Assembly: GCA_041613315.1 (NCBI GenBank)
Contig: JBFJHJ010000014.1
Coordinates: 1 to 64,000, forward strand
Length of the DNA: 64,000 bases
Source of the DNA: Gemmatimonadales bacterium
GTDB taxonomy: Bacteria; Gemmatimonadota; Gemmatimonadetes; Gemmatimonadales; GWC2-71-9
Direction of reading: 5' to 3'
Below, in pieces: positions 40,901 to 46,900 of the stretch. Position 1 is the first letter of the stretch. Every line of letters begins with the position of its first letter. The position numbers were made by a program.

Positions 40901-43900
40901 CGTGGATGGCCGAGGACGACATGGGGTGGACCCTGTGGCTCCTCGAAACGTACGGGTTCGTCGTGGACACCCTACGCAACCGGGATATCCGGGAAGGCGA
41001 CCTGTCGCGCTACCATGCGATCATCCTGCCGGACCAGACTCCGGAGGAGCTCCTCGCGGGACACCCACCAGGCACGATGCCGGAGGCGTATGTGGGTGGC
41101 GTCGGCGCCGCGGGTGTGGCGGCGCTGGATCGGTTCGTGCGCGCGGGCGGGACGCTCATCGCCTTCGATGACGCCGCCGATTTCGCGATCGCGCAGCTGG
41201 GGCTCCCCATCCGGAACGCCGTGGCGGACATCCCGCCCGAGCGGTTCTTCATTCCCGGATCGCTGGTCCGCCTCGAGGTGGACGTGGCGCATCCGCTGGC
41301 ACGCGGCATGGAGCGCGAGACGGCGGCCTCGTACCAGCGCAGCCGGGCGTTCGAGATCGTGCGGCTCTCGAAGGCGATGGAAGGCGGGAGGGTCGAGACG
41401 CCCGACCCGCCGGCCGCGCCGGTGCACGTCGTGGCCCGCTACGGCCGCGAGCGCGTGCTCATGAGCGGCTGGGCGATGGGGGAAGACACCTACCTCGCCG
41501 GACGACCGGCGATGGTGCGGGTGGCGCACGGTCAGGGCGCCGCCGTGCTGTTTGCGTTCCGTCCGCAGTTCCGCGGCCAGCCGCGGGGGACGTACAAGCT
41601 GATCTTCAACGCGCTCTTCGCGGCGACGGAGGTCGACCGCGCTGCCGATAGCGACACCCCCTAGCCCGGCGAGCGGGCGGCGACGCGCCGGCTCGAGCCC
41701 CGGCGCTCGTCCCCACGCCGCTCGGCGATGCGCTGGTGTCGAGGTCGTGTGAGCATCCGCCGGGATGCCGATCGCGTGCACCACGCGTGAGCCGTGGCAT
41801 CGTGGTCCGGCCGCCGCCCTCCGGCTACATTTCGCTGTCCTCAGCAGACACTTCGCCGATCCGCTCCGGACCCCGGTCACTGTGACCTATTCCCTCGCGC
41901 TCCGTTACGCGTTGTGCGATCGTCCGGTCGAACTCGTGACGGACGATCCGGCGCTCGCCGAGCCGCTCCGACGGCTGTTTCCGGCATACGTGACGAACGG
42001 GGCCGCTCCGGCGAACCCGGACGTCGCGATCCGGCGTGCGGGCGACGGCTATCGCGTCGCGATCGGCTCGGGAACGCCGACCCTCTGCCGTACCGTCGTC
42101 GAGGTGATGGAAGTCAGCGAATTCGCGTTGTGCGAGGCCCTTCTCACGTCATGCCGCCGGTACATCCACGTGCACGCAGCCGGCGCGATCATGCACGGCG
42201 GTGCCGTGCTCGCGCTGGGGCGTGCGGGTGCGGGGAAGTCGAGTCTCGCCGTCGCGTGGAGCCGGCGTGGCCACGCGGCCCTGGGTGACGATATCGTGCT
42301 GCTCGACGTCGAGGGACGGGCACTCGCCTTCCGGCGGCTGTTCAAGGTGCACCCCGCGCTCCTGCAGAGGGTCGACGTGGACCTCGACAACACGCCGTTC
42401 TGGGTACCGGGGAGCACGGATGCGTGGTACGACCCCTCGGTGAGCGGCGGTTGGGTGGACGAGGCGCGGATCCGGGCCCTCGTGCTCGCGCGCTATCGCA
42501 CCGGCCGCCCGCTCGCGATCACCGAAGCGTCCTCTGCGGACGCGCTGAACGCGTTGGTGCACAGCGTCCTCCCGTCGGGCGTGCGCCGGCGCGCCGCGTT
42601 CGACACGCTGTGTCGGGTGGTGGCCGGAGCCCGCGCGTGGGAGGTGACGTTCGGCGACGTGGTGGCGGCCGCCCAGGCCCTGGAGGACCTCACCGCGTGA
42701 GCGAGCATATCGTCGTGCGGTTCCAGCGCGCGCTGGAAGATGCGGCCGAAGTCCTGGGGATGCCCGAGGAGGCGGGCGCCCGGCAGCTCGCGGTACGGTT
42801 CGGGATCGCCGGCTATCTCGCGCGGCACCGGAAACGGGTGCCCGAGACGCCACCCACGCCTGAGCACGTGGCCCCCCGGCTGTACGCCACGCTGTTTCGG
42901 GAAGCCGCGGGCGAGATCACTCGGCTCTTCAAGCGCCGCGGCGTCCGCCACTTCTTCTTCAAGGGCGTGGCACTCCTCGGCCGCATCTACGACGTGGGCG
43001 ATCGCGAGTTCGCGGACATCGATCTCGTCGTCGATCCCAAGCAGCTCAACACGGCCGTGGCGGCGCTCTACACGCTGGGCTACGTCGCCTACCGCGAGCC
43101 GGATCAGCCCGGGCCCGCGACCCTCCGGCCGGGGATGACCATGTATCTGCCCGGTCGCGGCTCCGACTTCGAGCAAGTCCTGCTCGACGTGCATTGGGGC
43201 TTGGAGCCCGTGACGCACCTGCTCCCGCGCGCCGACCTCGCGGTGCCCCAGGCCATCTGGAGCAACATCCAACTCGAGCGTGGCCTCACCGTGCCGATCG
43301 ACGAACACCACCTCGCGTTGATCGTCCATCACCTGGCGCACCACGACATGTTGCACGTGCGTGGGCTGCTGGACGCGGCACTCCTATGGGAGACACTCCC
43401 CAAGCGCGCCGGCGGCGAGGTCGACCAGGTGGTGAGGGCCATCGGCGTCCAGCGATCCATGCAAGCGGTGGCGCGGGTGCTGGTGGACGACCTCGCGCTG
43501 TATCCGCTCCGTGGGCTCCAGATCGGCGTGGACGGCCTGCGGGGCCGCGCGCTCCAGCGCGTGCTCTCGCTGCGCCGCTGGCTCGTCTGGGCGGCGCGGG
43601 CCAGTGAGCGGGAGCACGTGATGGTGACGCCCCGGCGGGTGTGGCGGCGTCTTCTGCTCGCCGACGACCTGAACGGCACCGCGCTGGGGCTCCTGGGGGA
43701 CGCGGTCAAGCCGCCCGACGAATACCTGCGGTGGCGCTGGCCCGACGCGTCCTCCGCGTTCAACGCGTGGATGCACCACCTGGGACGCGTCGCCGGCAAG
43801 CTCGTGGGTCGGTAGACGCTTGCCCGCCGTCGGGCGCGCCCTAATCTTGCCGACATGACGAGCGACGACCGCCGGGGGTCCCCCACCCGCCGCGACGACG

Positions 43901-46900
43901 TGGTGTTCCGCCAGCTGGACGACGATTGGGTCATCTTCGATCCCACGACCGATCGCCTGCACTCGCTCAACCTCTCCGCGGCGTTGATCTGGAGTCACCT
44001 CACGGGCGAGATGGATCTCGAGGAGATCGCCGCCGCGGTGGGAGCCACGTTCGATCCGCCCGTCTCCGGCGACCGGATGCTCGGCGATGTCGAAGTGGCC
44101 GTAGCCCGCTTCCGGGCCGAGGGCCTTCTCGCGTGAGCGCCGCGTACTACCGCGATCTCCTCGCCCAGCGGGAGCGGATCGAAGCGTTCCGCCGGGCGAT
44201 CGCCCGCGTCGTGCGGCCCGGCGACCGCGTGCTGGATGTGGGAACCGGGCTCGGGACGTTCGCCTTCTTCGCGGCGGACGCGGGGGCGACGAAGGTCTGG
44301 GGCGTGGACGGCGATCCGGTCATCGCCACGGCGCGCGCCGTGGCCCGCGCGAACGGCTATGCCGGGCGTGTCGAGCTGATCCGGGGCTGGCTCCCCGAGA
44401 TCGAGCTGCCCGCTCCCGTTGACGTGATCATCTTTGAAGATCTCCCGAACCGGCTGGTCAACACTCGGGTGCACGGCCTGCTCCGGGCCGTCCACGACAG
44501 GTACGCGGTGCCGGGGGCGCGGACGGTGCCGGAGGCGGCCGAGGTATACCTCGCCCCGGTCCGCTCGGACGCCCTCTGGCGCACGGTCATCCCGTTCGGC
44601 GAGGGCACGCCGTACGGGATGGATTGGACGCCGCTCCGCGCGCTCGTCGCCAACCTGCCCCTCGACGGTTCCATTCCTTCCGGAGCGCTGGTGGGCGAGC
44701 CGGCGTCGCTGGGCGTCGTGCGGTTCGACGAGGTGCCGGACGCCGCCGCGCTGGGTGGTGAGACCGTCTGGCGGCTGGCCGGCTCCACGACGATCCACGG
44801 CCTCGCCTACTGGTTCGACTTGGACCTGGGAGGGGGGGAACGGCTGTCCAATGCTCCCGGCGCGTTTCCCGCCTCGTGGGGGCACCTGTTTCTCCCCCTC
44901 GATCCTCCGCTCGAGGCTGTGGGCGAGGTGCGGGCCCGCGTGCACGCGCACCGGTTCGCTGACGGCGCGCCGGGGTGGCTCAGTTGGGAGGTGACGGTGG
45001 GGGGGCGTACGGTGCGCGGGCACGAGTTCGCCGCCGAGCCGGCCTCGCTGGCCGATCTGCAGGCGGCGGCGCCTGATGGCGTGCCCCGGCTGAGTCCCCG
45101 AGGGGCGCTCGAGGGCCGTGTGTTGGCGCTCACGGACGGGCGCCGGACGATTCGCGAGATTGCACGGCAGGTAGCGGCGGAGCATCCCGCCCTCGCCCCG
45201 GCGGCGGCGGAGCGGCTTGTCGCCCGGGTGTTGGCGCATAGAATAGCGAGTGGCGACGTCCTCGCCACGGTGCACGACGGGAGTGCGAGATGAGCGATTC
45301 CGACCGGCGGGAGTTCCTGAAGAAGCTGGCCAAGACGGCCGTCTATTCGGCGCCCGTCATCGCGAGCCTGGCGGCGCCGATCGAGCTGGTGGGCCAGGGA
45401 CAGTCGCCGACCCACAAGCACCATGGAGGCTCGGCGTCGCCGACGTCGCAGGAGCTGCCGCCCAATCCACAGCCCGGCGGGCCGCCCCCGTGGGACCAGC
45501 CGCCTCCGGGGGGGCGCCGGCGGTAACCTCGACCTCCGAGCACGGGCGTCGAGTCTGTCGAGCGCCCGCGCGCCCTCCGGCGTGCGGGCGCTCGTGCCGT
45601 GTGTAGGTTAGCAACGGGAACCTCCTCCTCCTTCCGCGCGTTGAGGCCGGGGACATGGATCGGTTCGATCTCATCGCGATTGGTGGCGGCACTGCGGGGC
45701 TGGTGACGGCCGCGGGCGGTGCGGCGCTGGGCCTCCGGGTGGCGCTGGTGGAGCGCGCGGCGCTGGGCGGCGATTGCCTGTGGACGGGCTGTGTGCCCAG
45801 CAAGGCGCTCATTGCGTCCGCCCGGCTCGCGCACCAGATGCGCCACGCGGACCGCTTGGGGCTCATTGGCGCGTCGCCAGCGCATGCGTTCCGCTCGGTG
45901 ATGGAGCGGATGCGGGCCGCCCGAGCGCGCGTGGCGCAGCATGACGACCCCGAGCGGTTCCGGCGAATGGGCGTGGAGGTGATCCTGGGCGCCGCTCAAG
46001 TCACGGGAGAGGGACGCGTCGCCGTGGACGGACGGACGATTGCCGGGAAGCATCTCCTGGTCGCGACGGGTGCCGAGCCGTCCGTGCCCCCGATTCCCGG
46101 TCTCGCCGAGGCCGGCTACCTCACGTATCTGGCGGCGTTCGACCAGGACACCCTGCCGCCACGGATCGCCGTGCTGGGCGGCGGGCCCATCGGGCTGGAG
46201 TTCGCGCAGCTCTATCGCCGCTTGGGCGCCGACGTGACGGTGCTGGAGATGCTGCCCCAGTTGCTGCCCCGCGAAGAGGACGAGGCGTCGGCCGTGGTCC
46301 ACGCGGCGCTCGACGCGGAAGGCATCGGTGTGCTCACCGGCGCGCGGGTCGCGGGTGTCGAGACGCAGCCGGACGGTGCAAAGGTCGTGCGCGCGGCGTG
46401 TGCGAGCGGGAATGGTGAGGCGCTGGCGGTGACGGTGGATGAGATCTTCGTCGCCACCGGCCGGCGGGCGATCGCCGATCGGCTGGGACTCGCCAGCGCG
46501 GGCGTCGAGGTCGAGCGCGGCGCGGTGACGGTGGACCCGGCGCTCCGATCGACGCGCCGTGGCGTGTGGGCCGCCGGCGATGCCGCGGGCGGCCCGCAGT
46601 TCACCCACGTGGCGGAGTATCACGCCAAGATCGTGTTACGGAACATCGTCGCGCCGTTCACCGCGAAAGTCGACTACCGCTCGGTGCCGGCCGTGACCTA
46701 TACCGATCCCGAGGTCGCCCGCGTCGGCCTCACCGAGGCCGAGGCCCGCGAGCGCTACGGCACCGTGGAGGTGTACCGCTACGCGTTCGCGGATCTGGAT
46801 CGGGCGATCGTGGACGGCCACACCGATGGGTTCGTGAAGGTGGTAACGCACGGCCGGGGCCGGATCGTGGGGGCGACCGTGGTCGCGAGCGGCGCCGGCG

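What a model noticed while it worked through the whole genome (the two positions that open the first line are those of the whole stretch)
41765..45526. RiPP-like cluster with a eukaryote-type protein arginine methyltransferase fused to an RRE
A five-gene operon (HprK-related kinase g1209, nucleotidyltransferase g1210, PqqD/RRE g1211, methyltransferase g1212, 78-aa peptide g1213) looks like an undescribed RiPP system. g1212 has the full PRMT fold (Rossmann plus beta-barrel) with a C-terminal RRE-like winged helix. The peptide has a conserved leader (RRxFLKKLAK..AY.AP...S..AP) and a variable core that usually ends W(E/D)RPPP.
Evidence so far: 174 homologues; many carry PRMT C-terminal families and one passes the Pfam PqqD cut-off at residues 330-370. 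AlphaFold pLDDT 93; all listed Foldseek hits are PRMT6/CARM1/HMT1, E about 1e-25, TM 0.6-0.8. Gene order NTase-PqqD-MTase-peptide in 10 of 10 related loci, kinase in 9 of 10; peptide leaders conserved, cores variable. NCBIfam: kinase and PqqD resemble the HPr-rel-A and lasso models, below cut-off. Paper searches show no PRMT-fold RiPP enzyme.
(Added by a program. Inside this text positions count along the whole contig: contig position 1 is position 1 of the stretch shown here. "Call 12" and the like, gene names such as g00115 and contig names such as C1 are that model's own, and its searches are not shown. The text may have been shortened before it was handed on; [...] marks where a part breaks off. 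The agent that wrote the report below was given it as the finding of a first reader that could run no searches.)

Follow-up and report, generated by a model that had tools for sequence, protein, structure and literature searches.

The report
Retooled arginine-methyltransferase fold in peptide pathway
A five-gene bacterial operon probably makes a small exported, phosphorylated peptide using an enzyme built like eukaryotic arginine methyltransferases that has lost the arginine-binding residues and more likely methylates methionine, lysine or histidine.

Summary
The operon is real: HprK-like kinase, NTP_transf_5 transferase, discrete RRE, PRMT-fold methyltransferase and a 78-aa precursor, conserved in Gemmatimonadota and several other phyla. 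Three revisions. (1) Its core matches the linear polyphosphorylated peptide (LPP) pathway of Bacillota (PMC13381572), without LPP's peptidase and exporter. (2) The leader carries a twin-arginine motif, a YxxP RRE motif and a signal-peptidase-like site at fixed spacing, so Tat export probably replaces those two genes; this scan noted that before on other DNA (e1-4758888). (3) The PRMT fold is confirmed (VIA Z 23-30), but arginine is an unlikely target: second Glu in 4 of 67 enzymes, THW His in 0 of 67, 16 of 57 cores lack Arg. The 'fused RRE' is only the helical half and is missing from 17 apparently intact homologues. New here: bacterial PRMT-fold enzymes with canonical double-Glu had RiPP neighbours in 1 of 70 loci, altered-pocket clades in 90 of 93, including lasso clusters whose cores are richer in Met and Lys, not Arg, than PRMT-free controls. 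Best guess: Met/Lys/His methylation; untested.

The parts
41765..42700 (+). HprK-like kinase (LppK/PadeK/PsmK type); true start probably near 41876
   Evidence: TIGR04352 51.7 bits of 200, PF07475 E 2e-4; His137, Lys158, Asp175-Asp176 fit the His-Lys-Asp-Asp motif of lasso kinases (PMC9266682 passage); profile hits HPr kinases in PDB; homologues align from residue 35-46
42697..43815 (+). NTP_transf_5 nucleotidyltransferase (LppN/PsmN type)
   Evidence: PF14907 83.3 bits, cut-off 31.2
43820..43847 (+). promoter-like motif TTGCCC-N16-TAATCT, 7 nt before the RRE start codon (possible leaderless internal transcript for RRE-MTase-precursor)
   Evidence: pattern in 18 of 37 upstream regions, at most 2 in 2000 base shuffles; pattern was derived from these same sequences; missed by the consensus scan
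43855..44136 (+). discrete RRE (PqqD family)
   Evidence: PF05402 41.5 bits, cut-off 23.4; NF033530 and TIGR04353 below cut-off
44133..45293 (+). PRMT-fold SAM methyltransferase (residues 1-300) with an altered substrate pocket: E102-D103 kept, second Glu and THW His lost, no N-terminal helix before residue 3
   Evidence: phmmer best PRMT6 E 1.8e-23; Foldseek and VIA; motif counts
45096..45233 (+). C-terminal three-helix domain like the helical half of PqqD/RRE, without the beta-sheet
   Evidence: hhalign prob 95.5, 46 columns, RRE positions 42-88, controls 0.1-0.2; helices only; no Foldseek match with E<=0.001, weak rows Rv2067c, PqqD, Fur, TbiB1
45217..45244 (+). promoter-like motif TTGTCG-N16-TAGAAT inside the MTase 3' end, 45 nt before the precursor
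   Evidence: only hit of the consensus scan; related pattern in 14 of 31 loci, at most 1 in shuffles; lies in coding sequence, so protein constraint is an alternative
45290..45394 (+). precursor leader (35 aa): twin-arginine RREFL, YxxPxI RRE motif 13 residues later, predicted cleavage LVG|Q 17 residues after the Tyr
45395..45526 (+). precursor core (43 aa): Q-G-Q-S-P-T-H-K-H-H then a Pro/Gly-rich tail; Ser4 is the likely phosphosite, His7/Lys8/His9/His10 the likely methyl acceptors in this genome (no Met here; three terminal Arg)

Best explanation
An LPP-like RiPP pathway. The discrete RRE binds the YxxP motif of the precursor in the cytoplasm (inferred from LPP and lasso systems). The HprK-like kinase (poly)phosphorylates the Ser at core position 4-5 (inferred from LppK). 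The NTP transferase adds an NMP, sugar or other activated group to that phosphate (weakly inferred; LppN showed no activity). The PRMT-fold enzyme, brought in by the same discrete RRE, methylates the Met/Lys/His patch just behind the Ser rather than Arg: S-methyl-Met sulfonium where the core has Met, N-methyl-Lys or -His where it does not (about 0.5 on its own). The modified peptide leaves through the housekeeping Tat system and signal peptidase I removes the leader at L-V-G|Q (about 0.7). Shown here: gene content, fold, motif loss, leader architecture, composition contrasts. Inferred: every catalytic step and the export.
For: FED-type enzymes: kinase in 62, RRE in 62, NTase in 52, lasso cyclase in 0 of 67 loci. 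LPP core and Ser3 phosphorylation (PMC13381572). Leader at fixed offsets in 57 precursors: Arg-Arg 54, Pro 57, -1 Gly/Ala/Ser 54, -3 Leu/Val/Ala 51, +1 Gln 39; my TATFIND-like rule passes 51 of 58 precursors against 63 of 2141 crude genes of the genome; 2 of 19 pass TIGR01409; TatC in the genome; no shared peptidase or exporter among the neighbour families scanned. Ser in core positions 2-8 in 47 of 57 (shuffles mean 29, max 40); K/H/M in positions 5-10 in 50 of 57 (mean 35, max 46); every core has K, H or M. Second Glu 4 of 67, THW His 0 of 67 against 67 of 70 and 32 of 70 in stand-alone bacterial homologues. Lasso cores beside PRMT-fold enzymes: Met 6.8%, Lys 7.2%, Arg 6.4% (24 cores); kinase-bearing PRMT-free lasso clusters: Met 0%, Lys 1.4%, Arg 6.0% (16 cores); after de-duplication 15 vs 23 cores, p 0.007 Met, 0.02 Lys, 0.49 Arg. 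One genome with precursor, RRE and kinase but no MTase hit has a core without Met or His. RRE-MTase-precursor stays together when kinase and NTase move elsewhere (L020, L029, L030). S-methyl-Met exists in a lasso peptide (10.1101/2023.03.06.531328).
Against: No single one of K, H, M is universal: 9, 22 and 13 of 57 cores lack them, only Ser, Gly and Pro are in all. Enzymes 80-87% identical with nearly identical pockets face HKKH, HH or MMM cores, so one enzyme would have to accept different residues. The lasso enrichment comes from other active-site clades (DLRG, DQxG), not from this one; within Gemmatimonadota alone it is not significant (5 cores, p 0.065 and 0.085); cores were picked by regex and kin are not independent. 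The natural 'knock-out' is one genome. Met/His-rich cores could be selected for metal binding. Tat: three Lys follow the motif, hydrophobicity is modest (median best 13-residue mean 1.53), 3 of 57 have RK, 17 of 19 miss TIGR01409; precursors were found with a leader profile, so leader conservation is partly built in. No PF05096 glutaminyl cyclase found (83% complete genome), so pyroglutamate is open.
Confidence: 0.55

Rival explanations
1. Same pathway, but the methyltransferase caps the group built on Ser (terminal phosphate, NMP or sugar), or a small co-substrate that the NTP transferase then ligates, as FzmU ligates an activated phosphonate in fosfazinomycin.
For: Ser is the only modifiable residue in 57 of 57 cores; kinase accompanies 65 of 67 altered-pocket enzymes that have at least 3 kb of flank on both sides; the lasso-linked clades gain Arg in the pocket (Arg104 11 of 11 DLRG; Arg249 12 of 13 DQxG) and FED has Arg7, Arg107, Arg169 in 40, 32, 48 of 67; near-identical pockets face different cores; PMC13622209.
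Against: Does not explain the Met/Lys enrichment of PRMT-linked lasso cores over kinase-only ones; FED keeps an acidic Glu-Asp pair; Arg7 and Arg169 are also common in the canonical group (32 and 29 of 70); the MTase stays with RRE and precursor when kinase and NTase move away.
Confidence: 0.2
2. A true bacterial protein-arginine methyltransferase acting on Arg of the precursor.
For: Whole PRMT fold, invariant first Glu, Arg15 and Trp249; the window's core ends GGRRR; 41 of 57 cores contain an Arg; the leader has two invariant Arg.
Against: Second Glu 4 of 67, THW His 0 of 67; 16 of 57 cores lack Arg and only 5 have one in the first 10 residues; Arg is 3.6% of cores against 9% in the cluster enzymes; no Arg enrichment in PRMT-linked lasso cores. 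That PRMT catalysis needs the double-Glu pair is my recall, not from a call.
Confidence: 0.1
3. The RRxFL motif is part of an enzyme- or RRE-binding helix, not a Tat signal; the peptide is cut by a general protease and stays inside or leaves by another route.
For: Basic, modestly hydrophobic segment after the RR; 17 of 19 miss TIGR01409; LPP and fosfazinomycin use other processing routes.
Against: Fixed -3/-1 small residues and +1 Gln; distant precursors (L053, L060, L061) look more like Tat signals, with longer hydrophobic stretches and AxA sites.
Confidence: 0.2
4. The methyltransferase acts on another cellular protein and the operon is a chance association.
For: Stand-alone bacterial PRMT-fold genes are common (69 of 70 canonical loci have no RiPP neighbour).
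Against: 49 of 49 FED loci with at least 3 kb on both sides have RiPP neighbours, 0 of 45 canonical ones; in the 301-genome sample 9 of the 11 genomes with the precursor also have the enzyme.
Confidence: 0.05

Closest known systems
Linear polyphosphorylated peptides (LPP) of Bacillota, LppA/K/B/S/D/N (Popov et al., Nat Commun 2026, PMC13381572; read: parts 1, 2 and 5 of 12 and term passages)
   Same: Discrete RRE, HprK-like kinase, uncharacterised NTP transferase, no cyclase, YxxPxV leader, Ser near the core start, variable C-terminus; some distant loci lie in capsule/EPS regions.
   Different: No SipW-like LppS and no MsbA exporter; twin-arginine leader with SPase I-like site; added PRMT-fold methyltransferase; Gram-negative hosts. 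The main text has 0 hits for methyltransferase, Tat or Gemmatimonad; supplements not read.
Phosphorylated lasso peptides: paeninodin PadeK, pseudomycoidin PsmK/PsmN (review PMC9266682, passages)
   Same: HprK-like kinase with His-Lys-Asp-Asp motif, nucleotidyltransferase-like partner, discrete RRE, YxxP leader.
   Different: No cyclase or B2 peptidase in 67 loci; Ser near the core N-terminus rather than C-terminal.
Eukaryotic protein arginine methyltransferases (PRMT1/3/4/6/10; PDB 5is8, 2fyt, 5lv4, 3r0q)
   Same: Rossmann plus beta-barrel over residues 1-300, VIA Z 29.8, rmsd 3.2 over 297 residues; first Glu, SAM-binding Arg, Trp of THW.
   Different: Second Glu and His of THW lost, His-Met pair of the N-terminal helix changed to Tyr-Leu, no N-terminal extension, extra C-terminal helical domain; 22-24% identity.
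Longipeptin A / LopH (10.1101/2023.03.06.531328, passages)
   Same: S-methyl-Met sulfonium in a RiPP, the chemistry proposed here for Met-rich cores.
   Different: LopH's top structural match was an MTHFR domain, not a PRMT; activity assigned by elimination; no kinase or Tat leader described in the passages read.
Fosfazinomycin late pathway FzmZ/T/U/K/H (PMC13622209, parts 1-3 of 6)
   Same: YxxP peptide, discrete RRE next to a nucleotidyltransferase, kinases, a methyltransferase, no dedicated peptidase.
   Different: [quoted passage not shown]
HPr-rel-A cassette (TIGR04352, TIGR04353)
   Same: Kinase and PqqD-like genes score best on these models.
   Different: Both below cut-off (51.7 of 200; 22.7 of 35).

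Membership tests
LPP RiPPs | Discrete RRE | tested here: met
   PF05402 passed; 62 of 67 loci
LPP RiPPs | HprK-like kinase and NTP transferase | tested here: met
   kinase 62, NTase 52 of 67 loci
LPP RiPPs | YxxPx[V/L/I] leader and Ser near the core start | tested here: met
   57 of 58 precursors with the motif; Ser in core positions 2-8 in 47 of 57; the HQxIxFET part of the LPP motif is absent
LPP RiPPs | SipW-like SpI leader peptidase and MsbA-like exporter in the cluster | tested here: not met
   none in the window operon nor among the 61 neighbour proteins scanned
LPP RiPPs | Polyphosphorylation of the core Ser | not testable with these tools
   needs mass spectrometry
Lasso peptides | Macrolactam cyclase and B2 peptidase | tested here: not met
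   cyclase 0 of 67 FED loci; no PF13471 hit in the own genome, 83% complete
Protein arginine methyltransferases | Rossmann plus beta-barrel PRMT fold | tested here: met
Protein arginine methyltransferases | Double-Glu loop | tested here: not met
   first Glu 67 of 67, second 4 of 67; Thr111 in the window, aligned to PRMT6
Protein arginine methyltransferases | THW loop | tested here: not met
   His 0 of 67, Trp 62 of 67
Protein arginine methyltransferases | Methylation of peptidyl Arg | not testable with these tools
   indirect evidence against:
RRE (fused, C-terminus of the MTase) | Three-helix bundle homologous to PqqD | tested here: met
   hhalign prob 95.5, E 1.5e-8 pairwise
RRE (fused, C-terminus of the MTase) | Three-stranded sheet that pairs with the leader | tested here: not met
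   no strand after residue 297 in the full model or in the domain alone; RRE positions 1-41 unmatched
Tat substrates | Twin-arginine motif followed by an uncharged stretch | tested here: met
   51 of 58 by a TATFIND-like rule written from recall, baseline 63 of 2141
Tat substrates | TIGR01409 cut-off | tested here: inconclusive
   2 of 19 pass, 2 more at 16.5 of 16.7; the window's peptide has no hit
Tat substrates | TatC-dependent export | not testable with these tools
   TatC present

The most novel reading that the evidence does not exclude
Bacteria have recruited the PRMT fold into RiPP biosynthesis several times (a Tat-exported linear family and at least three lasso-linked clades), each time dismantling the guanidinium pocket, to make a peptide Met S-/Lys N-methyltransferase; the product here would be a Tat-exported peptide with (poly)phospho-Ser next to sulfonium or methyl-ammonium groups, from a leader that is both RRE docking site and export signal.
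Probability: 0.35. Interest if true: 0.87.

Novelty: new variant of a known kind. Interest (0 to 1): 0.7.

Why it matters
The PRMT fold is known for methylating arginine in eukaryotes. A widespread bacterial branch that works on ribosomal peptides and on another acceptor would be a new RiPP enzyme family, a possible tool for site-specific Met or Lys methylation, and a set of natural pocket variants for asking what makes a PRMT arginine-specific. The compact five-gene operon also offers a second system for finding what the LppN/PsmN-type transferases do, and a test of whether a Tat signal can double as an RRE-binding leader.

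Tried and rejected
AerE/PoyE as a PRMT-fold precedent (my recall): rejected, AerE is GenN/PrmC-like (PMC9060474 passages). 'PRMT' in PMC12214591 is a file suffix. Complex prediction of MTase with precursor gave no verdict. No RNA holder was listed. Metagenome scan with a distant kinase found nothing; genome scan with another found only itself and one fragment; the phylum search around G309 covered 4 genomes and nothing rang, so no broad set of MTase-free Tat precursors was obtained as a control. 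The scan with the DLRG alignment could not run; that clade's context comes from 16 genome regions. ESM Atlas hits for the peptide were unnamed or under 0.9, lead only. Foldseek of the C-terminal domain alone gave no match with E<=0.001; the wider VIA search of that domain was not obtained. Idea that K/M next to Ser reflects kinase preference (the genome's HPr site reads AKSIMG): weakened, kinase-only lasso cores have no Met. Pyroglutamate: the Q-rule abstract calls it Bacteroidetes-specific (PMC5837995, listing only), PF05096 not found, type II cyclases not searched. The downstream arsenosugar-type cassette is not part of the system (13 of 75 loci). No eukaryotic PRMTs were in my trees, so direction of transfer is not addressed. 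PMC12637814 passages name SznE as a bacterial arginine methyltransferase for free Arg; its fold was not checked.

Full report
Observation. NTase and RRE pass Pfam cut-offs; the kinase is HprK-like below cut-off. The methyltransferase has the PRMT fold over residues 1-300: PRMT6 is the best PDB sequence hit (E 1.8e-23), the model has pLDDT 93.4, and in a search of 48,161 chains 15 PRMTs score Z 23.3-29.8 before a drop to 12.7. Related loci are mostly Gemmatimonadota, with others in Nitrospinota, Tectomicrobia, Methylomirabilota, Poribacteria, Acidobacteriota and Desulfobacter. In a sample of 301 Gemmatimonadota genomes 22 hit the enzyme profile (several belong to other clades) and 11 hit the precursor profile (the tallies include genomes marked unpublished, G104 among the 11, whose sequence I did not use).

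The precursor. A leader profile found 57 precursors in 70 loci, 58 with the window's; two more were found by hand in L061 and are not in the counts. In the 57 with a YxxP motif, spacing is fixed: Arg-Arg 13 residues before the Tyr (54 RR, 3 RK), invariant Pro, and 17 residues after the Tyr a site with Leu/Val/Ala at -3 (51), Gly/Ala/Ser at -1 (54) and Gln at +1 (39). A TATFIND-like rule that I wrote from recall passes 51 of 58, against 63 of 2141 crude genes of the genome. Only 2 of 19 tested pass TIGR01409, and the search was seeded with the leader, so this is suggestive, not proof. TatC is present; no peptidase or exporter recurs among neighbours. The simplest reading is a leader that is both RRE site and Tat signal. 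I held this reading, before seeing that the scan had reached it on other genomes. Cores have Ser at positions 2-8 in 47 of 57 and K/H/M at 5-10 in 50 of 57, both above all 2000 shuffles; Met is 7.4% of core residues, 24 of 57 cores have three or more; Arg is 3.6% and absent from 16. W(E/D)RP is in 11 of 57.

Closest system. LPP clusters of Bacillota carry a discrete RRE, an HprK kinase that polyphosphorylates core Ser3, an NTP transferase without detected activity, a SipW-like peptidase and an exporter (PMC13381572). This operon has the first three and the leader motif, lacks the last two, and adds the methyltransferase. It works like an LPP pathway but fails membership.

The 'fused RRE'. The C-terminal domain aligns to the cluster's RRE profile with probability 95.5 but only over positions 42-88; control segments score 0.1-0.2. 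It has helices only. It is missing in 24 of 67 aligned family members, 17 of them apparently intact 308-346-aa proteins and 7 truncated or frameshifted, while the discrete RRE is kept. One distant homologue, P0199, carries this domain and a separate whole RRE. The domain is enriched in RiPP-linked enzymes (43 of 67, 12 of 13, 7 of 11, 2 of 2) over stand-alone ones (7 of 70), so it may help engage the peptide or the RRE, but it is not a complete leader-binding RRE.

The active site. Against PRMT6 the enzyme keeps the first Glu, the SAM-binding Arg and the Trp of THW, and loses the second Glu and the His. To see whether this matters I fetched the best 80 of 317 loci of the nearest clade with a second Glu and 16 genome regions, and grouped 163 enzymes by loop motif. 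Canonical enzymes (70): second Glu 67, HW 32, RiPP neighbour 1. FED enzymes (67, this family): second Glu 4, His 0, neighbour 65, cyclase 0. DQxG (13), DLRG (11) and GDIH (2): first Glu mostly Asp, THW replaced, neighbours in 13, 10 and 2, nearly all lasso clusters with an HprK kinase. With at least 3 kb of flank on both sides the split is 0 of 45 against 67 of 67. Groups were defined by motif, not by neighbourhood, but members are related and do not count as independent events.

Which acceptor. Lasso cores beside PRMT-fold enzymes (24) have Met 6.8%, Lys 7.2%, Arg 6.4%. Controls came from 40 of the 129 Gemmatimonadota B2 places listed, chosen for score and contig length, none with such an enzyme: 30 cores, Met 1.0%, Lys 2.3%, Arg 5.4%; the 16 from kinase-bearing loci have Met 0, Lys 1.4%, Arg 6.0%. 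After removing near-duplicates (15 vs 23) Met p 0.007, Lys p 0.02, Arg p 0.49; for Gemmatimonadota alone (5 cores) p 0.065 and 0.085. Cores were picked by one regular expression in both sets, which misses other leader types. Genome G286 (96% complete) has this precursor family, RRE and kinase, no hit to the enzyme profile, and a core with no Met or His. Against a single acceptor: no one of K, H, M is universal, and enzymes 80-87% identical face different cores. So either the enzyme accepts Met, Lys and His at a set place, or it methylates the group built on Ser. I favour the first (0.5 against 0.2; Arg 0.1) because it explains the enrichment, and because RRE, enzyme and precursor stay together when kinase and NTase sit elsewhere in the genome (3 loci). 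A promoter-like motif directly before the RRE start (18 of 37) fits that sub-operon, and another precedes the precursor (14 of 31); both patterns were drawn from the same sequences. S-methyl-Met has one RiPP precedent, by an unrelated enzyme. In the window's own peptide, which has no Met, the candidates are Lys8 and His7/9/10.

Literature. Ten searches showed no PRMT-fold RiPP enzyme and no natively Tat-exported RRE-dependent RiPP in the listings; the library holds only open-access papers and supplements were not read. A 2024 review of RiPP methyltransferases has 2 uses of 'arginine', both about plantazolicin's N-terminus (PMC11285071 passages). The daptide preprint passages did not describe this cluster.

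Verdict. Real, conserved, a new variant of the LPP kind with a new enzyme family. The fold assignment and the loss of the Arg pocket are shown; export route and chemistry are inferred. Biological role is open; Met/His-rich exported cores suggest soft-metal binding (inference from general knowledge), and some distant loci lie among capsule genes as LPPs do.

Noticed in passing
L130, L132, L134, L140, L141, L145, L147-149, L152, L153, L162, L169-171 (Acidobacteriota, Binatota, deltaproteobacteria and others); L172-178, L180, L181 (Gemmatimonadota): Lasso peptide clusters (cyclase, B2, RRE, HprK kinase, often NTase) with PRMT-fold methyltransferases of three other pocket types (DQxG, DLRG, GDIH). 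DLRG-linked cores tend to end [K/R/M]-[T/S]-x(0-2); DQxG-linked cores often end in Cys-Leu and are Met-rich (9.1%).
   Followed up: partly
70 loci, mostly among L092-L168, plus L066-068, L070, L179, L182, L183: Stand-alone bacterial PRMT-fold genes with an intact double-Glu loop, 32 of 70 with HW; candidates for true bacterial protein arginine methyltransferases.
   Followed up: partly
window 45655-49883: FAD oxidoreductase, VTT protein, DUF547, and glycosyltransferases passing TIGR04283 and TIGR04282 (arsenosugar-type cassette) follow the operon here and in 12 other loci of one sub-clade.
   Followed up: partly
L032-L034, L036, L039, L041, L042, L055: In Longimicrobiales-type genomes the operon lies next to rpoC and, in most, before rpsL-rpsG-fusA-tufA; these enzymes lack the C-terminal domain.
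   Followed up: no
G000:C26 1399-2718 (-) and 5983-6945 (+) (L090): A second NTP-transferase-like gene and HprK-like kinase in the same genome, with no RRE or precursor found near them.
   Followed up: partly
L239, L250, L238: Kinase plus one to three RREs without the methyltransferase; L239 and L250 have Cys-rich candidate precursors, L239 with a twin-arginine YxxP-like leader.
   Followed up: no
L015 8001-11853; L007, L010, L028, L037, L055, L065: L015's methyltransferase is interrupted by about 2.6 kb of other DNA; the others have frameshifts or early stops in kinase or methyltransferase, possibly assembly errors.
   Followed up: no
L061 8684-8947 and 10358-10678; L044 9171-9704: Loci with two precursors; L061 also has two kinases and leaders with longer hydrophobic stretches and AxA|Q sites.
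   Followed up: partly
window 37470-38726 (+): 418-aa lipoprotein-like ORF with a serpin-like hinge (EEGTEAAAA); label recalled, not scanned.
   Followed up: no
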